From assembly GCA_963788135.1 (NCBI GenBank), contig CAWBFT010000049.1:318546-382545 (forward strand): a stretch of DNA of 64,000 nucleotides. Reading direction: 5' to 3'. The DNA is from an uncultured Gammaproteobacteria bacterium. Lineage in GTDB: Bacteria > Pseudomonadota > Gammaproteobacteria > Methylococcales > Methylomonadaceae. A program made the position numbers and the translations under genes. The notes below the pieces were generated by a model. The model was not told the DNA's origin, made no database searches, and saw nothing but the letters and a program-made list of their open reading frames with translations. The stretch's first letter is position 1; each line of letters starts with the position of its first letter. Positions 1 through 53,583 of this stretch are shown here, piece by piece.

Positions 1-1122
<1,122 letters not shown>

Positions 1123-1363
1123 TAACACCCAATAAGCTTGGGTAGTGAGTTGGCACTGCTAAAGTAAGAGAACACACGGTACAGATTTCCATGTAAGCCC
1201 CAAGGTAAGGCAAAAAAGCCAAACCAAGAGGCTAAAAGAGTTGAGTAGCGGAAGCCAGAAAGCCGACGCCAAAAAAGTAGGGACAAAAAAATGAAAACGC
1301 ACTCAGTGAAAAGCACCGCTTTCACCCAGAAGCTTTCAGGGTTATCCTACTTTTAACACCGAA

Positions 1364-1484
1364 TTGCTTGGTGACCATAGCGAGCGTGAACCACCCGATC
1401 CCATCCCGAACTCGGAAGTGAAACCGCTTAGCGCCGATGATAGTGTGGCAGTTTGCCATGTGAAAGTAGGGAATCGCCAAGCGC
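1364..1484 (+). rRNA. rrf: 5S ribosomal RNA
   Basis: About 120 nt matching 5S along its length (TTGCTTGGTGACCATAGCGAGCG...CCGAACTCGGAAGTGAAAC...AGTAGGGAATCGCCAAGCGCC). Ends approximate, +/-3 nt. Confidence 0.9.
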
Positions 1485-30653: not shown

Positions 30654-31092
30654 GAACCTTGTTTTTTGTAAAACTAATAATAACCCTTCATTATCCATGA
30701 TATCGCCAAGTTTATCTATGCAAACGCAAGTTGGCTCAAGTTATTTGTTGCCCCAATGCTTAATTTAGGTAGTACCGTCAAAACCTCCTCAAAATAAAGC
30801 TTCGGTGAATAAAAATATATATTTTATTTGTAATGTTGCCTTCGTGATTTTTCTTTAAATAAAATAGATATGATAATTTTATCAATAAGATAAATAAACA
30901 TATTACAAATATGGCATGGATATCGCTTAGTTATTTTTGTCGTTCATTGAGCTCAAGTGCTGACAAGTTGTGGTTTTTGCCACGCTGGTGCAACTTAACC
31001 CAATCTTGGTCGTTAGGTTGTATGCCGCCGAGTTCAAAATTGACAAACGGGTGGTTCTGGAGAATATAGATTGGTTCTATTCCAATACGCCC

Positions 31093-31164
31093 CAATGGAT
31101 AGCTCAATGGTAGAGCAATAGACTAATAATCTATCTGTCGTGGGTTCGACTCCCACTCCAACGG
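31093..31164 (+). tRNA. tRNA-like element, possible pseudo-tRNA: anticodon loop CTAATAA (anticodon AAT) and two acceptor-stem mismatches
   Basis: Cloverleaf by eye. D arm GCTC-AATGGTA-GAGC, anticodon arm ATAGA-CTAATAA-TCTAT, variable loop CTGTC, T arm GTGGG-TTCGACT-CCCAC. Acceptor CAATGGA pairs with TCCAACG with A-A and A-C mismatches. No CCA encoded. Conserved U8, A14, G18G19, A21, T54T55C56, A58 are all present. Confidence 0.5.
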
Positions 31165-31432
31165 TCTGTAAAACCGATATTAATAAATGCAGTAGGGCTG
31201 GTTGTGGAATGCATAAGCCTCCATTGCCTTTAACCCGCGAAAGAATTGCTGAACGGGCAAGCCGTCAGGTCGCTTTGAATGGCGAAGCGTATGGTTGAAT
31301 TAACAGTTATCGGGTTAGTGCAGGCTTAAGCGGGAACATTTCATCGCGCCTTTCATCTCCCTCGTTTAGCCGGACGGACGATTAGGTTAAGGGTATTGAC
31401 CAGATTTTTAGTAATGGAAGGGAATAATAATT

Positions 31433-38691: not shown

Positions 38692-40956
38692 TCAAAATAA
38701 ATCGACTGGATCAACATCCACGCTCCAGCGGATTTTTTTTGAAGTTTTGTTGTTGTCCAAATAATTAACTATCTCGGTTAACAACGCTTGCAAGTTTTTC
38801 CGGTTGCGGCTTTGCAGTAACAGTTGATAACGGTAAACGCCCACCCTTTTTTCCATAGGTGCGGCGACCGGGCCTAAAATTTGTGTATCCTTATTTTTAT
38901 GGGCTTGGGCGAAATTTGCCACATGCTGAAGAAATTCTATTACGAATCCTGATTTTTTTGCTTGTGCACGGAGCAAGGCATGATAGCTAAATGGAGGTAA
39001 CTGGGCTTGCTTGCGTTCCGCCAAAGTAATCTGGGCAAATCGATTATAACCTTCATGGATTAAAGTATTGAGCAAAGGATGCTCTGGATGGCGGGTTTGT
39101 AGGATGACTTTGCCGGGTTTTTCCGCGCGTCCTGCCCGCCCTGAGATTTGTACGATAAGCTGGGCCAAACGCTCTGCTGCTCGGTAATCGATGCTGAACA
39201 AGCCGCTATCGACATCGACAATCGCCACCAGGGTGACATTTGGAAAATGATGGCCTTTGGCTAACATTTGCGTGCCGAGAACAATATCGGCATGACCTTC
39301 GTTGATTTGGGCAAGATAGCGTTCCAGCGAACCTTTGCGCTGCGTGGTGTCGCGATCCAGTCGAACCAGTGTCTTATCGGGGAAAACCTCTTCTAGAGCA
39401 ATTTCTATACGTTCAGTACCCAAACCCAAGGGGGTTAACTCCTCCGAATTGCAAGCGGGGCATGATGGCGGTAACCGTTGCTCTTTGCAGCAGTGATGAC
39501 AACGAAGCAACTTGCTATGGCTGTGGACAACAAGGTTGGCGTCACAATGTTTACAACGGGCTACCCATCCGCAGCCATGGCAAGTCAAGGTAGGGGCAAA
39601 GCCGCGGCGGTTAAGAAAGATCAAAACTTGTTCGTCTTTTGCTAAAACCTTGCGAATTTCGCCAATCAATGCTTCGGAAAGCCCATGGTGCATTCTTTTG
39701 TTTCTGATATCCAACAAATACAAGGTTGGTTCAACCGCATTGCCAGCGCGTTCGGACAAGATAAGATGACGATAACGCTGTTGTCCGGCGTTATACAGAC
39801 TTTCTAATGAGGGTGTCGCCGAACCAAGGAGTACAGGAATATTCAGCAATTTGCCGCGCACAATGGCGACATCGCGGGCAGAAAAGCGGAAACCTTCTTG
39901 CTGCTTGAACGAGGTATCGTGTTCTTCATCCAGAATAATTAATCCCGGATTTTTTAGCGGAGTTAACAAAACGGAACGAGTGCCTAGCAAAATGGCGCTT
40001 GTGCCTTGTTGTGTTTTAAGCCAAGCGGCATGACGTTGTTTGTCGGTTAACCCTGAATGCGATATCGCGATTGCCACGGAAAAACGTTGTTCGAAACGTT
40101 CCACTAATTGGGGGGTCAGGTTGATCTCCGGTACGAGTACCAAAACTTGTTGCCCGCGTGCTAATACAGAACGAATAATTTGCATGTACACTTCGGTTTT
40201 ACCACTGCCGGTTACACCTTCCAGCAGGAACACTTTAAAGCTATCCAGGGAAGACGTAACTGCATTTACCGCTGATTGTTGCTCTGTGCTCAAGGTAAAT
40301 GATTTTGAGCACCCTAGGGCTTCTAGGTTAGCTTTTTCGTTAGCCACTAAAGAAGAATTTATCTTTGGCGGCGGGTTGGCTTGTATCAATTGCTTGTCAA
40401 TTAGCGCTTTTATGGGGGATCGCCAGTTGAATCCCAGTTGATTTAACCCAATCTCGCTTAAACAAGAGGGTTTACTTTGTTGAAAATAAGCAAAAAGCTT
40501 TTGTTGTTTTGGTGAACGTTTAAGTTGTTCTATGGCTTCAATTTCGCCAAGTTTTGTGAGTGCATAATATTTTTCTTCGTTTTCAAGAGTAGCCGACTGG
40601 CCTCTGCGTAAGGTTAAAGGGAATGCCGTCTCCATAACTTCGCCCAGAGGATGATGATAATAATCGCTGGTCCATCGAAGTAGGCGAATATCTTGTGTAC
40701 ACAGAAGTGGCGCATCGTCAATAATATTGGTGATAGTTTTTAGTTGAGAAAAAGCAACGTTACTGTTTTTGGTAACTTCGATAAGGTAAGCAACTTTTTT
40801 ACTTTTGCCGAAAGGGACTTCCAGCCGTAATCCAGGAATTAAATTCTCGCGATCAACGGCTTCCGGTGCAAGGTAATCGAATAATCGGTATATAGGCACC
40901 GCGACCGCCACTCTTAAAATGAGCGGAGAAGCAGAATTTTGTGACTTAGCCAGCAT
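38692..40956 (-). CDS. priA: Primosomal protein N' (replication-restart helicase PriA)
   Basis: 754 aa. Walker A GVTGSGKTEVY and DEEH box. Cys-rich zinc-binding region (CHGCGWVARCKHCDANLVVH...CHHC). Confidence 0.9.
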   Translation of the reverse strand: MLAKSQNSASPLILRVAVAVPIYRLFDYLAPEAVDRENLIPGLRLEVPFGKSKKVAYLIEVTKNSNVAFSQLKTITNIIDDAPLLCTQDIRLLRWTSDYYHHPLGEVMETAFPLTLRRGQSATLENEEKYYALTKLGEIEAIEQLKRSPKQQKLFAYFQQSKPSCLSEIGLNQLGFNWRSPIKALIDKQLIQANPPPKINSSLVANEKANLEALGCSKSFTLSTEQQSAVNAVTSSLDSFKVFLLEGVTGSGKTEVYMQIIRSVLARGQQVLVLVPEINLTPQLVERFEQRFSVAIAISHSGLTDKQRHAAWLKTQQGTSAILLGTRSVLLTPLKNPGLIILDEEHDTSFKQQEGFRFSARDVAIVRGKLLNIPVLLGSATPSLESLYNAGQQRYRHLILSERAGNAVEPTLYLLDIRNKRMHHGLSEALIGEIRKVLAKDEQVLIFLNRRGFAPTLTCHGCGWVARCKHCDANLVVHSHSKLLRCHHCCKEQRLPPSCPACNSEELTPLGLGTERIEIALEEVFPDKTLVRLDRDTTQRKGSLERYLAQINEGHADIVLGTQMLAKGHHFPNVTLVAIVDVDSGLFSIDYRAAERLAQLIVQISGRAGRAEKPGKVILQTRHPEHPLLNTLIHEGYNRFAQITLAERKQAQLPPFSYHALLRAQAKKSGFVIEFLQHVANFAQAHKNKDTQILGPVAAPMEKRVGVYRYQLLLQSRNRKNLQALLTEIVNYLDNNKTSKKIRWSVDVDPVDLF

Positions 40957-41195: not shown

Positions 41196-42181
41196 TTACT
41201 CGGATTTGTGGATTATCTTTGGTATTCCAGTCAGTGCAGAACGATTAATGTCAACCATTATATTGTCAGGCAGAAAGCTTGATAGTGTCGGTTGAGGCTT
41301 GACAAATTTTAAAGTCATCCTGTCGCTTTCGCCGATGGCAAGATAAAAATCACGATCCTTTTCTTTTAATTTTAGGGTGGGCGGGAGCGTCCATACGCCT
41401 TCCGGGTAATCTTTGACGTCTTTGGGATTAGCGTTGATTTCGGATTTTGCCAAGAATTCAAACCCGGCATTTCTGGCTAAGGCGATCACGTAGTCTTCGT
41501 TAACATAACCTGATTTTGCGGTAGGGTTCTGGCGGTTTTCTGGCAGAGCCACGGTGCTCAACGACACCAAGAATACCCCCCGGTTTTAAGGCTTTAAACA
41601 TAGCGCTGAAAACCATTGCCGCCTGGTTGTTTTTCATCCAGTTATGCACGTTGCGGAAGGTTAGCACTCGGTCGGCTGTGCCCGTCAGGGGCGATTTTCA
41701 AATACTCAGGCGGTTGTAATGTTGTTATTTCGACTTTATCGTATAGGGATGGTTGGCTTTTAAGTTTTTCGTTAAATTTAGCCAGTTTCGCTTTCTGGTA
41801 AGAATTCTGCGTATCCGGAGAAAATTGTGCGGCATAGAATTTGCCTTTTTCCCTCAGAAATGGCGCCAGAATTTCGGTATACCAACCATCACCCGGCCAA
41901 ATTTCCACAACTGTCATAATGTCTTTGACGTCGAAAAAATTCAGGGTTTCTTCGGGGTGTCGGTATTGATCGCGGTGTTTGTTTTCTGGAGAACGGTGCG
42001 AGCCTTCAATTATTTGTTTTAATGTAGCAGGTGCGTTGCCAATTATTGGTGTGGGTGCAGCGGAAATAGATGTGGCGGCTTTTAGCTCATCAGCCTGCAA
42101 TGATGGAATTATTTGAATGCTAACAAGTAAAGCCAATAGTAATTTATACATATATTTTCTCGATGATGTCCAAGTTATCAA
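41196..42181 (-). pseudogene. Secreted class-I SAM-dependent methyltransferase, disrupted by a frameshift near 41650-41690
   Basis: Upstream ORF: signal peptide plus motif I (VVEIWPGDGWYTEILAPF). The downstream part continues only in another frame (TFRNVHNWMKNNQAAMVFSAMFKALKPGGVFLVSLSTVALPE, post-I/III motifs), which the ORF track splits into 41642..42181 and 41196..41570. Confidence 0.55.
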
Positions 42182-44400: not shown

Positions 44401-45186
44401 ATGAAGATCTTTCCTGCAAGATTTATGTCGCCCGGATGCTTTATTAATCTGGTGCTGATGTCAGCTTTTTTCTTCACGACACAGGCGATAAGTCAACCTC
44501 TTCATGCCGCTGACGAGCAAAATACGGTAGAAATTGCTAAGAAGCCTCGCCTTTTAGACCCATTGTCCCCGAGCGAGCGCTCTCTTGCAGAACGGCTTGC
44601 CCAAAACGCTAATCGTTCAATGCGAGCAAGAATGATGTCGGAAAGTAAGCCTAGGCCAAAAGGATTGGAGGGTTTGGAAAATATGCAAACTCTCTATAGT
44701 CAACATCATAATGAAGACAAGAATTCCGATCCTTTATCGCGCAAAGCAGATGTTTTTTTATATGACTATTCGAATAACGAATCAATCCGGGTAGTGGTAG
44801 ATTTAAAAGATAATACCGTTCAAGACAGAGTTGTGACTAAAGGGGCCGTAAATCAACCCTTTTTTACTCAACGGGAAATAAATGCTGCGTTACAACTTAT
44901 TTTTGACCATCCTGACATGGGGTCTCGTCTCCGAAACGCTTACCGGAATGTATCTGGACAAGAACTTATAAATGTTAACCAGCTACAGGCAGAAGGTGGC
45001 ATCTATTTTACTGATCCCCGCACACCACTGGGTAGAATTACAGCCTCTTGTAAAGAGGATCGATGCATGCAGCTTTTTATACCCATTAATGACTCGAGTT
45101 TCATAGATACAAGTAACGTCATAGTCAATCTCTCAACGGGAGAAGTTATGTGGACTGATCAAGGCATATCTGAGCATACACACTAA
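44401..45186 (+). CDS. Secreted protein resembling copper amine oxidase N2/N3 domains only
   Basis: Signal peptide. VFLYDYSNNESIRVVVDLKDNTVQDRVVTKGAVNQPF matches the CuAO N3 domain pattern (...A.P.EGL...VDL....V..I.D.G.VP.P). Confidence 0.6.
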   Translation: MKIFPARFMSPGCFINLVLMSAFFFTTQAISQPLHAADEQNTVEIAKKPRLLDPLSPSERSLAERLAQNANRSMRARMMSESKPRPKGLEGLENMQTLYSQHHNEDKNSDPLSRKADVFLYDYSNNESIRVVVDLKDNTVQDRVVTKGAVNQPFFTQREINAALQLIFDHPDMGSRLRNAYRNVSGQELINVNQLQAEGGIYFTDPRTPLGRITASCKEDRCMQLFIPINDSSFIDTSNVIVNLSTGEVMWTDQGISEHTH

Positions 45187-45209
45187 TTAAATCTAGGAAA
45201 GTATATAAA

Positions 45210-46385
45210 ATGAGCATGTCGTACAAAAGAACGGTAAAAAATTTTAGTGCTGTAATACTCGTAATTCTGGGTGTTAGTGTTACACAAGCAGCTACGTGTA
45301 TTAATCCATCACCCAAATCTGTAGATTGCCAAATGACAAAGGGTGCTCGTTGGGAGTTTACTTGGGCTAATGATGTCAAAAAGGGCCTAGTATTGAGTGG
45401 GATAACCCTTACGGCAAAATCAGGGGCGCCCAGGACACTCATTCTTCAAGAAGCATCCTTAGCGCAACTGCTTGTGTCTTATGATAACAATAGCGGCAAT
45501 CAACACTATGCGAGTGATTCGGGACTAGCTTTAACCCCTTTAGCGGTTAAGGACTGTCCACTCCCCGGCAAATTATTACCAAATAATGGAGTCAATAGTG
45601 CGCTCTTATGTCAGATGATAATTCCACGTGGTTACGCTTGGCGCGGATCAGGACAAATTCAAGGAGAAAGTCTGATTTTATTTGGGGTGAGTGCGGTTGG
45701 TGGGGATACTTATATAAGCCAGTGGATATTCAACGATGATGGCTCTATCCAAATTAGGCTTGGCGTAAGCGGTCAGGTTGATCCATCACGTGACTCCTCT
45801 GCTGCTACAGGTTGGCCGATTGGTATTCCTGGATCGGCTCGTTACGCGACAAACCGTTATCATACCGCTTATTGGCGTCTTGATTTTGCCATAGGGGGAC
45901 AAGATAACGACTTATTTCAGCAGCTGGATTATGCCGGTTTACCATTTTTTGGATACATTAGAACTCAAACAATCACCGATAGATTGATTGAAGGTCAATT
46001 TAAGTATTCACCAGAAGGTCAGCGGTTTTGGATAATTAAAGATAAGGCAATTAGCAATTTAGCAAATGGACAGAAAATAGCTTTCCAAATAGTGCCGCAT
46101 CAAACATCTATGCATCGTGGTGGCGATGCCTTCACCAACTTTGATGTTTATGTTACCCAAAACAAAGCTTGTGAACAATTTGCTTCACATAATCCGACTA
46201 CAAGCGGTTGTGGGGTCGGTTTGCCTCAGTTTGTTAATGGAGAAGCTATCAGTGATCCTGTAGTTTGGGCTGGTTCTACTTGGCATCAAGTGCCACGCGC
46301 TGAAGATGAAGCCGATATTCAGACTCATTGGCAAGGGATCGTTATTGCGCCTCGTGATTTAACCGACACATCTCCCTTTAACTAA
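45210..46385 (+). CDS. Secreted copper amine oxidase catalytic-domain homologue lacking the TPQ consensus (probable pseudo-enzyme)
   Basis: Aligns to the CuAO catalytic domain: SAVGGDTYISQWIFNDDGSIQIRLGVSGQ (cf. VGNYDYIFDWIFHENGTIGIDAGATG), YHTAYWRLDFAIGG (cf. HQHIYNFRLDLDVDG), WHQVPRAEDE (cf. HVARAEEWP). N-Y-D is replaced by G-D-T, and the first His of HxH by R-Y. Confidence 0.7.
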   Translation: MSMSYKRTVKNFSAVILVILGVSVTQAATCINPSPKSVDCQMTKGARWEFTWANDVKKGLVLSGITLTAKSGAPRTLILQEASLAQLLVSYDNNSGNQHYASDSGLALTPLAVKDCPLPGKLLPNNGVNSALLCQMIIPRGYAWRGSGQIQGESLILFGVSAVGGDTYISQWIFNDDGSIQIRLGVSGQVDPSRDSSAATGWPIGIPGSARYATNRYHTAYWRLDFAIGGQDNDLFQQLDYAGLPFFGYIRTQTITDRLIEGQFKYSPEGQRFWIIKDKAISNLANGQKIAFQIVPHQTSMHRGGDAFTNFDVYVTQNKACEQFASHNPTTSGCGVGLPQFVNGEAISDPVVWAGSTWHQVPRAEDEADIQTHWQGIVIAPRDLTDTSPFN

Positions 46386-46402
46386 GTAACGGGCAATACA
46401 AG

Positions 46403-48316
46403 ATGAAATCGTTTTCTCTTTTTGAGTCATTCATTATCCAAACCGTCTCCTCGATCTTTTGCGCGGTTTTATTTTTGCTGTCTGTACAAAATGTGTTAGC
46501 ACAGACAACAGAAACGCTGGGTTGCTCGACTGAATACCAAATCGTACAAACTTTTGCTAATTCGGCTAAGTGGGAAATGTGTTGGGAGCCAAGAGCAGGG
46601 TATGGCTACCGTATAACGCAGGTCATTTATACGCCTCCGCATGGTATTCGAAGAAAAGTACTCGGTTCAATGCATCTAGCGCAATTATTTGTTCCATATG
46701 ATGAGAATGGCGCTCGATATCACGACATCGGTTTCGGTAAAAATCTGGAGTTGCTTACCCCAGCCGAATGCCCGGAAGGAAATTTGCAAACAAATCATAC
46801 GTTATGTTTGGTGCATCGCCCGACGGGATATTTTTATAAGAATGTGAGTATTGGAGAGTCGAGCCAGGGTGACAGCTTTGCTGTTTTCGGCTATATCGCC
46901 TTTAGCAGTTACAAGTACATTTTGCAGTACACATTTTTTGATGACGGCACGATAGAGCCGTCAGTCGGTGCCACAGGCAGTTTAGCTCGTTTTGCAGGGA
47001 CAGCGAGAACTGGTTGGCCAATTGGTAAACCCATTCAAATGGCCGTGAGTCACAACCATCTTCTCATTTGGCGAATGGATTTCGATCTTGATGGTAATTC
47101 AAATAATCGAGTTGAGAGAGTGAGCTTTACAAATACTGGCGGTGACGGGCGAAGTATGTCGGTAACGCCTCTTACAGTTGAAGCAAAAGAGGTCAATAGC
47201 CTTGCGAATGCCACGTTTTGGCGGGTTGTTAATACTGCCCAAAAAAATGCCGACGGACGCAATATCTCCTACGAAATTGAACCTAGTGTTACCGATTTAC
47301 TCCGCGCGCCAGAGGATTTTACTCAAAATGACTTTTACTTAACCCAGTATAAATCTACGGAAGAAATAGTCGATTCCGGCCTTGTCAGTTTTGTTGGCGA
47401 CGAAGTGATTACTGATCCTGTATTGTGGTATGGGGTAAACTTCCATCATGTTCCGCGTGCCGAGGATGATATTAAGATGCCTGTTCACTGGCAAGGCTTT
47501 CGCTTACGTCCGAGGGATGTAACTACGTCCAAGGCCGTTGTTACGAATTATGTGCCGGTCATCATAAATCCTGGGGCGCAAACGAGCGGCGTGAATAGCA
47601 ATGTGAGTATGCAAATCAAGGCAACCGATGCAAACGCTGGAGATATTTTGAAGTATAGTGCAACTGGATTGCCGACAGGGTTGAGTATCAATGCTGCCAC
47701 TGGCTTGATCAGTGGCAAAGTTCCAACTGTTGCTGGTGTTTATACAACTCAGGTATCCGTTAGTGATAGTCATCCGGGGGGGGCGGTCAGTGTCAATTTT
47801 ATTTGGACAATTAGCGCCGTGATGTCCAGTAACACACCGCCGGATATCATTAATCCCAATGCCCAGACAAGCGGAGTAAATAGCCCTGTAAGTATGCAAA
47901 TAAAAGCGACCGATGCAAATGCAAGGGATGTTTTAAATTATAGTGCTACCGGATTGCCGACAGGTTTGAGCATAAATAGTAACACCGGCTTGATTAGCGG
48001 TACTACGCCGGTTATTGCTGGCAATTATGCTGCCCAAGTAACTGTGAGTGATGGTCATCCGAATGGTATTTCCAAAATTAGCTTCCCTTGGACTATAACG
48101 GCGGGCGGTGTTTCTCAAACTCAGACATTCACTTCTCCTGATGTTATCACCATTCCAAATAAGGGAGACGCTTCACCGTATCCAGTAAATGTAAATGTTA
48201 ACGGAATGACGGGTTTTGTTAGCAAAGTAATCTTAACTTTGAATGGCTTAACCCACAGCTATCCGGCTGACATTGATATGCTGTTAGTTGGTCCGGGGGG
48301 CAGAAGGCAATACTGA
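46403..48316 (+). CDS. Secreted CuAO catalytic-domain homologue fused to Ig-like (He_PIG / dystroglycan-type cadherin-like) repeats and a proprotein-convertase P-domain. Terminates inside the P-domain at a poly-G frameshift.
   Basis: Catalytic Asp (YHDIGFG), Tyr in S-Y-K at the TPQ position, HNHLLIWRMDFDLDG and FHHVPRAEDD all present. Two repeats of INPGAQTSGVNS.VSMQIKATDANAGD.LKYSATGLPTGLSIN..TGLISG. P-domain start ...YPADIDMLLVGPGG, then a stop. Confidence 0.7.
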   Translation: MKSFSLFESFIIQTVSSIFCAVLFLLSVQNVLAQTTETLGCSTEYQIVQTFANSAKWEMCWEPRAGYGYRITQVIYTPPHGIRRKVLGSMHLAQLFVPYDENGARYHDIGFGKNLELLTPAECPEGNLQTNHTLCLVHRPTGYFYKNVSIGESSQGDSFAVFGYIAFSSYKYILQYTFFDDGTIEPSVGATGSLARFAGTARTGWPIGKPIQMAVSHNHLLIWRMDFDLDGNSNNRVERVSFTNTGGDGRSMSVTPLTVEAKEVNSLANATFWRVVNTAQKNADGRNISYEIEPSVTDLLRAPEDFTQNDFYLTQYKSTEEIVDSGLVSFVGDEVITDPVLWYGVNFHHVPRAEDDIKMPVHWQGFRLRPRDVTTSKAVVTNYVPVIINPGAQTSGVNSNVSMQIKATDANAGDILKYSATGLPTGLSINAATGLISGKVPTVAGVYTTQVSVSDSHPGGAVSVNFIWTISAVMSSNTPPDIINPNAQTSGVNSPVSMQIKATDANARDVLNYSATGLPTGLSINSNTGLISGTTPVIAGNYAAQVTVSDGHPNGISKISFPWTITAGGVSQTQTFTSPDVITIPNKGDASPYPVNVNVNGMTGFVSKVILTLNGLTHSYPADIDMLLVGPGGRRQY

Positions 48317-49422
48317 TGTCTGACACTGGTAGTACAACCCCCATTAATGCTATTTCGTTAACATTTGATGCTGCATCAGCCTCATTGTTGCCTCAGAGCA
48401 CAGTGATAAGTACTGGGGTCTATAAGCCTACGGATTACGCATTAGGCTATATTGATAGCTTTCCATCTCCCGCACCAACAGGCTCATATCAAGCTGATCT
48501 GAGTGTTTTTAATGGGGTTTCACCCAATGGAATATGGAAAGTTTATGTATTCGATGATTTAGGCGGCGATTTCGGAAAAATACAAAATGGGGTATCTCTA
48601 ACCATTACCACAGGCGGTAATACTACAGATACTAACACTCCACCTGTTATCACCAGTCCCGGTGCGCAAACAAGCATAATGAATAGGAGTGTAAGCCTGC
48701 AAATAAAAGCGACAGATGCAAACGCTGGAGATGTTTTAAAATATAGTGCTACCGGATTGCCGCCAAATCTAAGCATCAATGCCACTACAGGCTTGATCAG
48801 CGGGACTGCAACCACTGTTACTGGCAATTATACTGCCCAGATAACTGTGAGTGATGGTCATCCGAATGGTATTTCCAAAGTTAGCTTCCCTTGGAAAATA
48901 ACGGCGGGCAGTGCATTCCAAACCCAGACATTCACATCACCTGACGCTATCATTATTCCAAATATGGGAGCAGCTTCCCCATATCCAGCAAATGTAAGTG
49001 TTAACGGAATGACGGGCTCTGTTAACAAAGTATCTTTAACTTTGAATGGCTTATCCCATGTTTATCCGGCCGATCTCGATATTCTGTTGGTTGGTCCGGG
49101 AGGGCAGAAGTCGTTGCTGATGTCTGATGCTGGGGATACAAAACCCATTAATGCTATTTCGTTAACATTTGATGCCGCATCTGCTGCGGCTCTGCCTCAG
49201 AGCGCAGTGATAAAATCTGGTGTCTATAAGCCCACGGATTACGCCATTGGCCCTGCAGACAGCTTTCCAGTGCCCGCACCAATAGGTCCATATCAAACTG
49301 ATCTGAGTGTTTTTAATGGAGCCTCACCCAATGGAATCTGGAAAGTTTATGTATTCGATGATGTAGGCGGCGATTTCGGCAAAATACAAAATGGAATTTC
49401 ACTTAAGATTTCTACTCAATAG
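48316..49422 (+). CDS. Ig-like (He_PIG) plus P-domain repeat protein. Most likely the frameshifted continuation of the preceding CuAO-like gene.
   Basis: Begins with the second half of a P-domain, then one He_PIG repeat and one complete P-domain (ADLDILLVGPGGQKSLLMSDAGDTKPINAISLTFDAAS...GIWKVYVFDDVGGDFGKIQNGISLKI). Start overlaps the upstream stop (TGATG). Confidence 0.65.
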   Translation: MSDTGSTTPINAISLTFDAASASLLPQSTVISTGVYKPTDYALGYIDSFPSPAPTGSYQADLSVFNGVSPNGIWKVYVFDDLGGDFGKIQNGVSLTITTGGNTTDTNTPPVITSPGAQTSIMNRSVSLQIKATDANAGDVLKYSATGLPPNLSINATTGLISGTATTVTGNYTAQITVSDGHPNGISKVSFPWKITAGSAFQTQTFTSPDAIIIPNMGAASPYPANVSVNGMTGSVNKVSLTLNGLSHVYPADLDILLVGPGGQKSLLMSDAGDTKPINAISLTFDAASAAALPQSAVIKSGVYKPTDYAIGPADSFPVPAPIGPYQTDLSVFNGASPNGIWKVYVFDDVGGDFGKIQNGISLKISTQ

Positions 49423-49820: not shown

Positions 49821-50270
49821 ATGACGCATTTGGCGGAACGCTTCAGGGTCTCAAGGCCAACGATCTATGCCATCCTCAAGCGGGCAAGGTTACAAGAATT
49901 TAAGCCCCGGGACAGCCAACCCATGCTTCAAGCCCCTCCAATTTGGCCTTAAACGCCTCGTCAAAGTTGACCAAGAGCGCCTTAAACGCAGAGCTAGACC
50001 CTACAACAAGTCTTATCCGGGCGAACTCGTCCACTTAGATACCAAGCGCCTGCCGCTGCTCAAAGGCCAATCACCCGCCCAGCCCAGGGAATACTTGTTC
50101 GTCGCTATGGACGACTTCTCCCGCGAGCTTTACGCCGGCATCCTGCCGGACAAGGCCCAAGACAGCGTCGCCCAATTTTTGGTCGGCAACGTCATTGCCC
50201 AATGCCCTTACCAGATCGACTACGCTTACTCCGACAACGGCAAGGAGTACCGGGGTACTGACAACCATGC
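49821..50270 (+). pseudogene. IS481-family transposase remnant (HTH and DDE integrase core fragments in different frames, C-terminus missing)
   Basis: MTHLAERFRVSRPTIYAILKRA (HTH), then in another frame LVHLDTKRLP...YLFVAMDDFSRELYAGILPDK...AYSDNGKEYRG (rve DDE core). Confidence 0.5.
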
Positions 50271-50645
50271 TTTAGCATCTCATTCTTGGTCCCGTCGCTT
50301 TTGTGCTTCACTTTCTTGGTCGCCAAGTCGCTGTAAAGGAAAGGCTTGCGAACCAATTCAAACGCCACCGGCAACGACACGCCGCCAACATGGTAAAGGC
50401 AGTTGAGGATATTGATGCCCTTGACCGTACAGTTCTTGGTGTGGTCAAAGTATTAGCACACCAGTTCGTTCTCGTCGGTATAGGGCTTTTCCTGGATCGT
50501 GTCGTCAAAGATCAATACGCCATCCTCCTGTTCGATCTCACGCACCGTCTTTTTGACGTGCCGCCATAATATTTTTGAGTCATAGTCGTCCCGGTTCAAA
50601 AATCGAGTCACTTGGTCGTGGCTTAACGCCCCGTCTAGCTGGCTT
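50271..50645 (-). pseudogene. IS4-like DDE transposase fragment abutting the IS481-like remnant
   Basis: Minus-strand reading ...EDGVLIFDDTIQEKPYTDENELVC(stop)YFDHTKNCTVKGINILNCLYHVGGVSLPVAFELV. Approximate limits. Confidence 0.35.
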
Positions 50646-50865: not shown

Positions 50866-52242
50866 ATGATTTCATTAAAACTAAAAAAATCGTTTTCTTA
50901 TGGCTTGGCATTGCTGCTGGGTTGTTTTTTTAATTTATCTATAGCGGGTGAAACGACTATTGAAAGCGTCAGTTATAATGGTGTACAAGGAAATGCAAAT
51001 AGTGATCAACCAAGTATAAGCGCCGATGGTCGCTTTGTGGCATTTAATTCCGCATCTTCTAATTTAGTAACACAAGATAACAACAATAGCTATGATTCTT
51101 TTATTCATGACAGATTAACAAAACAAACTACACGAGTAAGTATTAATAGTCATGGGGTAGAAGGAAATTTTGGAGGTTTAAATACAGTCATTAGTGGTGA
51201 TGGTCGCTTTGTTGCATTTGAATCTTTTTCAACCAACTTAGTTGACGGTGATACCAATAATAATTATGACATTTTCTTACACGACCGTGTAAAAAACTAC
51301 CACACGGGTTAGTGTCGATAGTAACGGTGTAGAGGCAAATTCTTCTACGTTCGGAGGTATAAGCATAAGTGAGGATGGTTGTTTTGTAGTATTTCAATCT
51401 GATGCGACCAATTTAGTTAAGGGCGGAACAAAACAATTTCCAAACGTTTTTGTTCACGATACACTTACTAAACAAACACAGCTGGTCAATATTAATAAAA
51501 ATGGAAATGAGGGAAATGTCGGTAGCCAGCTAAATGGAACTCATAGCATAAGCGCCGAGGGGCGTTACATAACATTCACATCATGGGCTAGCGATTTGGT
51601 TGATGATAATAATGGAGCTTCTGATGTTTTCGTGTTTGACCGATTGAGCAAAAAAACAACGAGGGTTAGTGTCAATAGCAACGGAATTGAAGGAAACAGC
51701 TGGAGTTTGTCCCGATGTATAAGCTCTGATGGTCGCGTTATATTGCTTTTAATTCCCAGGCTTCTAATCTAGTTTCAAATGATAATAACAATATAGATGA
51801 TGTTTTCATCCATGATCGAATATCTAAGCAAACTTCTCGGGTAAGTATTGGAAGTAAAGGCCAAGAGGGAAATTGGTCTAGTGGCTTATCTATTAGTATT
51901 AGTGCAAACGGACGTTATGTAATTTTCAGTTCACTTGCGAACAATTTAGTCACTGGAGATACTAATTCAACATACGATGTATTTAGTCACGATCGGTTAA
52001 CTAAACAAACAACACGAATGAGTGTTGCCAACAATGGCGCGGAAGGTAATGGAGCCAGCCTTTATTCAGATCTCAGTGCCGATGGACGGTTTGTTGCTTT
52101 TGTGTCCAATTCCGATAATCTTGTTTCTAAGGATATTAATTATTCTGATGATATCTTTATCCGCGACCGTCTCCTAGATAAAAAACATCACTCCGATCTA
52201 AAAAATCAACGTAGTACAACAACCCTGGGGTTTAGCCAGTAA
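50866..52242 (+). pseudogene. Secreted PD40 / TolB-like beta-propeller repeat protein, with at least two frameshifts
   Basis: Signal peptide MISLKLKKSFSYGLALLLGCFFNLSIAGE. About eight repeats of S.DGRFVAF.S.ASNLV..D.N...D.F.HDRLTKQTTRVS. Reading frame changes at the A6 run near 51288-51293 and near 51730. Confidence 0.6.
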
Positions 52243-52602: not shown

Positions 52603-53583
52603 AAACCCGTGGTGCATTTAGGGGATAAAAAATAAGTTGCTCATTTTCACTGGGTGAATATCATTAAATTTTCGCCAAAAAACAAATGATATGAGCAACT
52701 TATGTGTAAGTTATAACAAAATATTGGGGTTATTGCACGAACTGGAACCCGCAGACAATTTCCTCAAACAAGTCCGTACACCTAAGCTATCGGACAAACA
52801 ACTGATTGCGCTGTCGTTGTCGGCAGAAAGCCTCGGCATTGACTCGGAACGTTACCTGTTCAAACAATTGCCGGCCAACCTGGCAAGCCAAATTGAACGT
52901 TCCGTGTTCAACCGGAGGCGGCGAGGCCTGAAATTCATGGTTGAACATTTCCGCCAACGGATGGTCACTGTGCTGGTGCCGTCTGAGGGTTATTTTTTTT
53001 TGTTGACAGCATGCCCCTGGAAGTTTGTAAAACCGCCCGTGCCAAGCGCTCCCGTATTTGCCAAGATGTCGATGGGGCGGCGCCCAGCTACGGCTATTGT
53101 GCCGCGCACAACGCGCATTACTTCGGTTATAAATTCCATGCGGTTTGCACACCCCAAGGGGTTGTCAAAACCTTCGATATCTCAACCGCAGCCACTCATG
53201 ACATCCATTACCTCAACGATCTGAAAACCCAGCTCCAGCACTGCGTTTTGGTCGGGGATAACGGTTACCTGAGCCGCCAATATCAACAGGACTTGTTCGA
53301 AACTGCCGCCATCCGGCTGGAAACCCCGAAACGCCGTAACCAAACCGACTTTGTGCCGTTCAGCCCCGTGTTAAGGAAAGCCAGAAAACGCATCGAGACC
53401 TTGTTTTCCCAGCTTTGTGACCAGTTCATGATCCGACGTAATTACGCCGAATTCTTTACAGGCTTGTCCACCCGTATCCTCTCTAAAATGACCGCATTAA
53501 CCCTCATTCAATGGCTAAACCATCGCAATGGAAACAATTTGAACAACTTGAAAATCGTTATTTCCTAAATGCACCACGGGTTT
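52603..53583 (+). mobile_element. IS982-family insertion sequence (981 bp) with 20-bp perfect terminal inverted repeats
   Basis: AAACCCGTGGTGCATTTAGG at 52603-52622, and its reverse complement CCTAAATGCACCACGGGTTT at 53564-53583. Confidence 0.8.
52691..53568 (+). pseudogene. IS982-family transposase split by a frameshift in a T9 homopolymer (52993-53001)
   Basis: The ORF-track ORFs 52691..53224 and 53011..53568 join as ...SEGYFFF-VDSMPLEVCKTARAKR...YCAAHNAHYFGYKFHAVCTPQGV...LVGDNGYLS only if the tract were T10. Confidence 0.7.

What the first reader, a model, noticed from the sequence alone, without database searches (positions are those of the whole stretch)
48286..48320. Poly-G tract frameshift splits the CuAO / Ig / P-domain gene into two ORFs; a second, in-frame G8 tract lies upstream
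The P-domain begun at ...ADIDMLLVGPGG ends three codons later at a TGA. The next ORF starts on that stop (TGATG) and continues the same P-domain (MSDTGSTTPINAISLTFDAAS...). In the downstream duplicate module the equivalent DNA reads ccgggagggcagaag and the frame stays open (LVGPGGQKSLLMSDAGDTKPINAIS). Here it reads ccggggggcagaag, one nucleotide shorter, inside a G6 homopolymer. Restoring one G would give a single secreted protein of about 1006 aa. A further G8 run (47773-47780, ...catccggggggggcggtc) sits in frame within an Ig repeat. Homopolymeric G tracts in a surface-protein gene are the classic substrate for slipped-strand phase variation. Alternatively this is a fresh inactivating mutation or a homopolymer sequencing error.
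Basis: seen in the sequence. Interest (0 to 1): 0.6.

Follow-up and report, generated by a model that had tools for sequence, protein, structure and literature searches.

The report
One-base frameshift, probably an assembly error
A single missing base splits a large secreted enzyme-like gene in two, but it is most likely a sequencing or assembly error, or else an ordinary recent mutation, and not a designed on/off genetic switch.

Summary
ORF1 (46403-48316) and ORF2 (48316-49422) are two pieces of one gene. It encodes a copper-amine-oxidase-like domain, Ig repeats and two P-domains, and it is broken by a one-base deficit at the G6 run 48295-48300. Adding one base gives a 1006-aa protein. All homologues are single proteins that read through this motif.

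The phase-variation reading is not supported:
- Nine homologous sites in six loci have no G run longer than 3.
- The nearest relatives read GGA GGG or AGA GGG, so the G6 is what remains after the lesion.
- G6 is below the length normally taken as phase-variable.
- G/C runs are not enriched in the window.

Selection looks the same upstream and downstream of the break, so the lesion is recent or not real.

The window holds at least five other small-indel frameshifts within 12 kb. Two of them lie in a methyltransferase gene 7 kb upstream. They are absent from an independent read-derived assembly of the same locus that has identical gene spacing. That points to consensus indel errors in this assembly. 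The G6 site itself could not be reached in independent data.

Estimates: artefact about 0.58, genuine recent mutation about 0.27, phase variation about 0.08. Interest is low.

The parts
46403..48316 (+). ORF1, 637 aa. It holds an N-terminal hydrophobic leader (read by eye), a copper-amine-oxidase-like catalytic domain, two He_PIG Ig repeats and the first ~63 residues of P-domain 1. It ends 5 codons after the frameshift.
   Evidence: PF01179 1.3e-29; PF05345 1.7e-31; alignment to pea CuAO 1ksi
47776..47783 (+). G8 run, in frame, inside Ig repeat 1 (CAT CCG GGG GGG GCG = HPGGA). The orthologue reads TCG GGT GGG GTG. Two independent Logan assemblies read through it in frame.
48295..48300 (+). G6 run at the frameshift (GGT CCG GGG GGc aga agg). 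It is one base shorter than the paralogous GGT CCG GGA GGG CAG AAG and the orthologous GGT CCA AGA GGG CAA AAG.
48314..48318 (+). TGATG: the stop of ORF1 overlapping the ATG of ORF2. The ATG is the conserved Met of the LMSD motif. A GAAGG (48303-48307) lies 8 nt upstream.
48316..49422 (+). ORF2, 368 aa: the rest of P-domain 1, Ig repeat 3 and P-domain 2. It has no leader peptide of its own and no promoter-like site upstream.
47834..48636 (+). Module 1 (Ig2 + P1), the module that carries the frameshift.
48637..49419 (+). Module 2 (Ig3 + P2), a tandem duplicate of module 1. It is 81% identical in nucleotides, with dN/dS 0.30. The orthologue L001 lacks it.
49098..49104 (+). GGGAGGG in the intact paralogous copy, the probable ancestral or true state of the G6 site.
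48039..48076 (+). 38-nt exact repeat (= 48842-48879). The independent k-mer assemblies stop here, 227 nt before the G6 site. A second exact repeat is 48340-48371 = 49144-49175.
41196..42151 (-). Calibrator: a methyltransferase gene broken by two +1 insertions (near 41681 and near 41535). It is 956 nt here, but a single 954-nt, 317-aa gene in an independent assembly of the same locus.

Best explanation
The gene is most probably intact in the organism. It would encode a 1006-aa secreted protein: leader, CuAO-like domain, Ig, Ig, P-domain, Ig, P-domain. On this reading the one-base deficit at 48295-48300 is a consensus or assembly indel error, and the true sequence is GGGAGGG or G7.

- **Shown:** the one-base deficit, the continuity of homology across it, and the presence of other indels in this assembly that an independent assembly lacks.
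- **Inferred:** that the G6 lesion belongs to the same class of error.

Either way, the lesion is not a programmed device.
For: 1. **Selection is unchanged across the break.** The frame downstream stays open for 368 codons. dN/dS is 0.305 upstream and 0.297 downstream against the paralogous module, and 0.188 on both sides against orthologue L001. So the lesion is very young or not real.
2. **All the other lesions are small indels.** The window holds at least five more frameshifts between 41.2 and 53.6 kb, all 1-2-nt indels. No in-frame nonsense codon appeared in the disrupted genes that were read.
   - Methyltransferase: two +1 insertions.
   - PD40 gene: one at an A6 run and one CGCG.
   - IS982-like transposase: inside a T9 run.
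3. **An independent assembly lacks two of them.**
   - A read-derived (Logan) contig from run ERR15459710 carries the identical DsbB protein.
   - Its intergenic spacings of 385, 49 and 239 nt are the same as in the window.
   - Its methyltransferase is one gene of 317 aa and 954 nt.
   - Removing the window's two inserted bases gives exactly 954 nt and 317 aa.
4. **The contig length suggests long reads.** The window comes from a 561-kb contig. This is an inference from length. Residual homopolymer-length errors are the commonest error of long-read assemblies and persist in repeat regions (PMC8812927 abstract). The G6 site lies between two exact repeats inside an 81%-identical duplicated module.
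Against: - No reads or independent contig covering 48295 could be obtained. The Logan contigs end at 48068. Look-ups with predicted partial products failed, including the positive control.
- 70 homopolymers of at least 6 nt, including G7, G8 and A/T8 runs, sit in frame inside ORFs. Homopolymer calling is therefore mostly good.
- The frameshifts cluster in 12 kb next to IS remnants. About 40 other genes look intact. That also fits real decay of an accessory region.
- The Logan contig could come from a sister strain rather than the same genome.
- Most of the other indels are insertions, whereas this one is a deletion.
Confidence: 0.58

Rival explanations
1. The lesion is a genuine, recent, unprogrammed one-base deletion: either loss of the A in GGA GGG, or A>G followed by a slip. 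It truncates the protein to 637 aa (CuAO-like domain, two Ig repeats and a P-domain stub). It would be part of the decay of an accessory region littered with IS elements.
For: - The frameshifts cluster at 41-54 kb next to nested IS remnants: an rve fragment at 49867-50406, a weak DDE_5-like fragment at 50453-50611 and a split IS982-like transposase.
- Genes elsewhere in the window are intact.
- Most long homopolymers are in frame.
- The truncated ORF1 keeps the whole catalytic domain. The orthologue manages with one P-domain, so truncation may be tolerated.
Against: - No relaxation of constraint downstream, and no second lesion in 1.1 kb.
- Every lesion located in the region's frameshifted genes is a small indel, with no in-frame nonsense codon found.
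- Two neighbouring frameshifts are absent from an independent assembly of the same locus.
Confidence: 0.27
2. The gene is a slipped-strand phase-variable (contingency) gene. The poly-G tract toggles between G7 (ON, 1006 aa) and G6 (OFF, 637 aa), and the G8 tract upstream is a second switch.
For: - A G7 would encode the same Pro-Gly-Gly-Gln as the intact copy.
- The G8 at 47776-47783 meets the cut-off of at least 7 G/C (PMC6321876).
- Two of the six G/C runs of at least 6 nt in 64 kb fall in this 3-kb gene. I calculate a binomial p of about 0.03.
- The product is a secreted or surface-type modular protein.
- The unchanged dN/dS downstream is compatible with a reversible switch.
Against: - The tract is absent from all nine homologous sites, where the maximum G run is 3.
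- The G8 is not conserved in the orthologue.
- G6 is below the usual threshold.
- G/C runs are not enriched in the window.
- The G6 is itself the result of the lesion, so it is not independent evidence.
- Three assemblies agree on the frame through the G8.
- No length variant was found in the metagenome or genome collections.
Confidence: 0.08
3. The split is functional. Either programmed -1 ribosomal frameshifting on G GGG GGC, or termination-reinitiation at TGATG, yields a full-length product or two products.
For: - G GGG GGC formally fits the X XXY YYZ slippery pattern in the ORF1 frame, and ORF2 is in the -1 frame.
- A GAAGG lies 8 nt before the ATG.
Against: - There is no stimulatory structure downstream: z = +0.8 against shuffles.
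- There is no promoter-like site upstream of ORF2.
- No homologue has a split or a slippery site.
- The ATG and TGA belong to the conserved CTG ATG of the LMSD motif and are also present in the intact copy.
- ORF2 has no leader peptide and starts in the middle of the P-domain.
Confidence: 0.02

Closest known systems
Residual homopolymer-length or indel errors in long-read bacterial and MAG assemblies (as described for polishing tools, e.g. Polypolish, PMC8812927)
   Same: - A 1-nt length change in a homopolymer that splits a gene.
- The downstream frame is perfectly preserved.
- Other indel-only gene breaks occur nearby, and two of them are absent from an independent assembly.
- The site lies in a duplicated module between exact repeats.
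   Different: - The sequencing technology of the source assembly is unknown.
- Most long homopolymers in the window are in frame.
- The site itself was not checked against reads.
Poly-G/C phase-variable (contingency) genes of Campylobacter, Neisseria and Haemophilus (PhasomeIt criteria, PMC6321876)
   Same: An intragenic poly-G run in a gene for a secreted or surface-type protein. A one-base change truncates the product.
   Different: - The tract is G6, below the cut-off of at least 7.
- It is not conserved in any homologue.
- No length variation has been observed.
- The host is an environmental Methylobacter-like gammaproteobacterium, judged from its closest homologues.
- There is no genome-wide excess of G runs.
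Intact homologues: Candidatus Methylobacter favarea 'putative Ig domain-containing protein' (P0004, 903 aa) and the syntenic orthologue in GCA_965190425.1 (P0003, 737 aa)
   Same: - The same architecture: CuAO-like domain, He_PIG repeats and P-domain(s).
- The same upstream neighbours: a ~260-aa protein and a ~391-aa CuAO-like paralogue.
- 61-74% identity.
   Different: They are single uninterrupted ORFs. The closest orthologue has one P-domain module, whereas the window has a duplicated Ig+P module.

Membership tests
SSR-mediated phase-variable (contingency) locus | Hypermutable tract of sufficient length (at least 7 G/C in PhasomeIt) in the reading frame | tested here: not met
   The tract at the frameshift is G6; the cut-off comes from PMC6321876. 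The separate in-frame G8 at 47776-47783 does meet it.
SSR-mediated phase-variable (contingency) locus | Tract conserved in orthologues or homology group | tested here: not met
   Nine homologous sites in six loci have a maximum G run of 3. The G8 site in the orthologue reads TCG GGT GGG GTG.
SSR-mediated phase-variable (contingency) locus | Tract length differs between reads, isolates or assemblies of one lineage | tested here: inconclusive
   G8: three assemblies are in frame. G6: no independent sequence could be reached.
SSR-mediated phase-variable (contingency) locus | Reversible ON/OFF switching at high frequency with a phenotype | not testable with these tools
   Needs cultures or deep read data.
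Assembly or consensus indel error | 1-nt length change at a homopolymer, with the downstream frame intact and under unchanged constraint | tested here: met
Assembly or consensus indel error | Other indels of the same assembly are absent from an independent assembly of the same locus | tested here: met
   The methyltransferase is 956 nt with two frameshifts here, but 954 nt and 317 aa intact in the Logan contig, with identical spacings.
Assembly or consensus indel error | Reads contradict the consensus at this very site | not testable with these tools
   No read access. The Logan contigs stop at 48068.
Pseudogene (real gene decay) | Disrupted relative to intact orthologues | tested here: met
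Pseudogene (real gene decay) | Relaxed constraint or further lesions downstream of the break | tested here: not met
   dN/dS is equal upstream and downstream, and there is no further stop in 368 codons.
Programmed -1 ribosomal frameshift | Slippery heptamer plus a downstream stimulatory structure, conserved in homologues | tested here: not met
   The heptamer G GGG GGC fits formally. There is no structure (z = +0.8) and no conservation.
Copper amine oxidase (PF01179) catalytic domain | Pfam match above the gathering score, and three His copper ligands | tested here: met
   PF01179 scores 103.8 bits. HNH and the third His align to HDH and HHVP of pea CuAO 1ksi.
Copper amine oxidase (PF01179) catalytic domain | TPQ consensus N-Y-D/E-Y | tested here: not met
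   The Tyr is kept, but the motif reads S-Y-K-Y, and N/Q-Y-Y/N-Y in homologues. The cofactor chemistry is therefore uncertain.

The most novel reading that the evidence does not exclude
The true sequence is G7 and the population holds a mixture of G7 and G6. A free-living methanotroph-like bacterium would then carry a lineage-specific, newly arisen contingency locus, with G7 and G8 tracts, that switches off the C-terminal P-domain/Ig modules of a secreted copper-amine-oxidase-like protein.
Probability: 0.07. Interest if true: 0.45.

Novelty: not a real feature. Interest (0 to 1): 0.12.

Why it matters
If it is an artefact, the practical lesson is quality control. This contig carries several gene-splitting indels, so its 'split' genes should not be read as pseudogenes or switches without read support. 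These are the CuAO/Ig/P-domain gene, the methyltransferase, the PD40 protein and the IS982-like transposase.

If it is a real mutation, it is an ordinary truncation of an accessory gene.

It would be of moderate interest only if reads showed true tract-length heterogeneity. That would be phase variation arising de novo in an environmental methanotroph.

Tried and rejected
- **Same-species sequences across the site.** An exact-flank DNA pattern with a variable tract found 0 hits in the metagenome collection. Protein-seeded scans of the genome and metagenome collections found only relatives of at most 64% identity.
- **Exact-protein look-ups.** ORF1, P0002, ORF2, the PriA gene (38692-40956), the N-terminal methyltransferase fragment and the rve fragment were not on record.
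- **Predicted Logan contig products.** I predicted the Logan contig that would carry a G6 version (48047-48316) and ran a positive control (49147-49422). Neither was found, so the test says nothing.
- **Repaired methyltransferase search.** The aim was to recover the intact Logan protein. The best hit was only 78% identical, so that collection lacks it.
- **'Designed' stop/start overlap.** Rejected, because the same CTGATG string is in the intact copy.
- **C6 at 41576 as a frameshift site.** Rejected: it is in frame (KPGGI), and the methyltransferase shifts lie elsewhere.
- **Enrichment of G runs.** Rejected by Markov simulation.
- **Uniform random sequencing error.** Disfavoured, because the six frameshifts fall in about 12 kb of about 53 kb of ORF sequence. 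Non-uniform error remains possible.
Full report
**1. Observation**

The sequence reads ...gat atg ctg tta gtt ggt ccG GGG GGc aga agg caa tac TGA tg....
- The G6 run is at 48295-48300.
- ORF1 (46403-48316, 637 aa) ends LLVGPGGRRQY*. ORF2 (48316-49422, 368 aa) starts at the ATG that overlaps the stop.
- The paralogous copy at 49096 reads CCGGGAGGGCAGAAG and stays open.
- Inserting one base gives one ORF of 1006 aa that reads LLVGPGGQKAILMSDTGSTTPINAIS.
- The second tract is a G8 at 47776-47783, in frame.

**2. What the gene is**

Pfam finds three kinds of domain:
- a copper-amine-oxidase catalytic domain (PF01179, 1.3e-29);
- He_PIG Ig repeats (PF05345, 1.7e-31);
- a proprotein-convertase-type P-domain (PF01483).

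The repaired first P-domain module reaches the PF01483 threshold, with a match spanning the junction. Neither fragment scores on its own.

The catalytic domain aligns to pea CuAO. The HxH motif and the third His are kept, and the TPQ tyrosine is present, but in an S-Y-K-Y context rather than N-Y-D/E-Y.

The closest database proteins are single polypeptides of 737-1701 aa from Methylobacter-like organisms, for example Candidatus Methylobacter favarea at 903 aa. All read through LLVGPxGQKxxLMSD.

A syntenic orthologous locus (L001, GCA_965190425.1) has the same neighbours: methyltransferase, DsbB, HD protein, a 260-aa protein and a 391-aa CuAO-like paralogue. Its gene is an uninterrupted 737-aa ORF with one P-domain. 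The window has an extra Ig+P module, 81% identical in nucleotides to the first.

**3. Nature of the lesion**

At the nine homologous sites found in six loci, the codons are GGA GGG, AGA GGG, GGA GGA, GGC GGT or CTT GGG. The longest G run is 3.

The window's own paralogue (GGA GGG) and the closest orthologue (AGA GGG) both have an A where the window's copy 1 is one base short. The simplest history is loss of that A, which creates the G6. The alternative is A>G giving G7, followed by a slip. On the simplest history the G6 is the result of the lesion, not a standing tract.

The G8 is also specific to this lineage. The orthologue reads TCG GGT GGG GTG there.

**4. Tests of the phase-variation idea**

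- G6 is below the cut-off of at least 7 G/C used to call phase-variable tracts, even in Campylobacter (PMC6321876).
- G/C runs of at least 6 nt are not enriched: 6 observed against about 6 expected. One G8 against 0.2 expected gives p of about 0.2.
- The TGATG overlap is only the conserved Leu-Met of LMSD. The intact copy has the same string.
- No RNA structure follows the formally slippery G GGG GGC, and no promoter-like site precedes ORF2.
- ORF2 has no leader peptide and begins in the middle of the P-domain.

**5. Age of the lesion**

| Comparison | dN/dS upstream of the shift | dN/dS downstream |
|---|---|---|
| Module 1 vs module 2 | 0.305 | 0.297 |
| Window vs orthologue L001 | 0.188 | 0.188 |

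There is no further stop in the 368 downstream codons. The lesion is therefore very recent, reversible, or not real.

**6. Context: other broken genes**

Between 41.2 and 53.6 kb the window has at least five more frameshifts:
- two +1 insertions in a methyltransferase gene, GG>GGG near 41681 and an extra base near 41535, judged against L001;
- two in a PD40-repeat gene, one at an A6 run (51291) and one CGCG near 51735;
- one inside a T9 run (52993) in an IS982-like transposase.

Nested IS remnants lie at 49867-50611. No in-frame nonsense codon was seen in the methyltransferase, CuAO or PD40 genes or at the transposase junction.

Genes in 1-40 kb and 54-64 kb give full-length domain matches. 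Seventy homopolymers of at least 6 nt lie in frame inside ORFs.

**7. Independent assemblies**

Exact-protein look-ups found read-derived (Logan) contigs of runs ERR15459710 and ERR12035938 that carry this locus.

- **CuAO contigs.** Contigs with the identical 391-aa paralogue have the same 23-nt and 17-nt spacers. They read the large gene in frame for 555 codons, through the G8 tract. They end at window position 48068. That is exactly 30 nt into a 38-nt exact repeat (48039-48076 = 48842-48879), as expected for a k = 31 graph. They therefore stop 227 nt before the G6.
- **DsbB contig.** A contig with the identical DsbB protein has spacings of 385, 49 and 239 nt, the same as the window. Its methyltransferase is one gene of 317 aa and 954 nt. 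The window has 956 nt, and deleting the two inserted bases gives exactly 954 nt and 317 aa.

So two of this window's frameshifts are absent from an independent assembly of what is, by layout, the same sequence. The simplest reading is that the source contig carries consensus indel errors. It is 561 kb long, which suggests long reads, although that is an inference. A sister strain cannot be excluded.

Residual homopolymer-length errors are the commonest error of long-read assemblies and persist in repeats (PMC8812927). The G6 site sits between two exact repeats in a duplicated module.

**8. Verdict**

| Explanation | Probability |
|---|---|
| Consensus indel error; the gene is intact at 1006 aa | about 0.58 |
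| Genuine recent unprogrammed deletion in a decaying, IS-rich accessory region | about 0.27 |
| Phase variation | about 0.08 |
| Programmed recoding or coupled two-ORF expression | about 0.02 |

The site itself was not checked against reads. Attempts to reach it through predicted partial products failed along with their control. Reads from ERR15459710 and ERR12035938 would settle the question directly.

Interest is low. This is either not a real feature or an ordinary frameshift.

Noticed in passing
window 41196-42151 (-): A class I SAM-dependent methyltransferase-like gene is split into three ORFs by two +1 insertions. An independent Logan contig of the same locus has it intact at 317 aa.
   Followed up: yes
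window 50866-52242 (+): A PD40 (beta-propeller repeat) gene has two frameshifts, one at an A6 run (51291) and one at CGCG (~51735). About 150 codons between them are left in another frame.
   Followed up: partly
window 52691-53568 (+): An IS982-like DDE transposase is split exactly inside a T9 run (52993-53001). This could be an error, a mutation or transcriptional slippage.
   Followed up: partly
window 49867-50611: Nested IS remnants lie directly downstream of the CuAO gene: an rve integrase-core fragment on the + strand abutting a weak, sub-threshold DDE_5-like N-terminal fragment on the - strand.
   Followed up: partly
window 44401-49422; L001 4002-8214: A three-gene cassette is conserved in Methylobacter-like genomes. 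It comprises a ~260-aa protein with a weak, sub-threshold AGAO-like N2 match, a 391-aa CuAO-like paralogue and the large CuAO/Ig/P-domain protein. The TPQ motif deviates (S-Y-K-Y) while the His ligands are kept. The family is uncharacterised.
   Followed up: partly
window 31092-31166 (+): ARAGORN calls a tRNA here as tRNA-Ile with anticodon AAT, and Rfam scores it at 58.7 bits. An A34 Ile tRNA is unusual for bacteria.
   Followed up: no
window 1-1482 and ~20000: The window starts inside a 23S rRNA gene (1-1121), followed by 5S rRNA (1367-1482). GC content drops from about 0.53 (4-20 kb; ABC, membrane-fusion (HlyD-type) and other transporter genes) to about 0.43 after 20 kb.
   Followed up: no
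window ~44402-44404: Two independent Logan contigs end and begin at this position, at the 5' end of the 261-aa gene. No exact repeat within the window explains this. It may be a strain-variable or low-coverage point.
   Followed up: no
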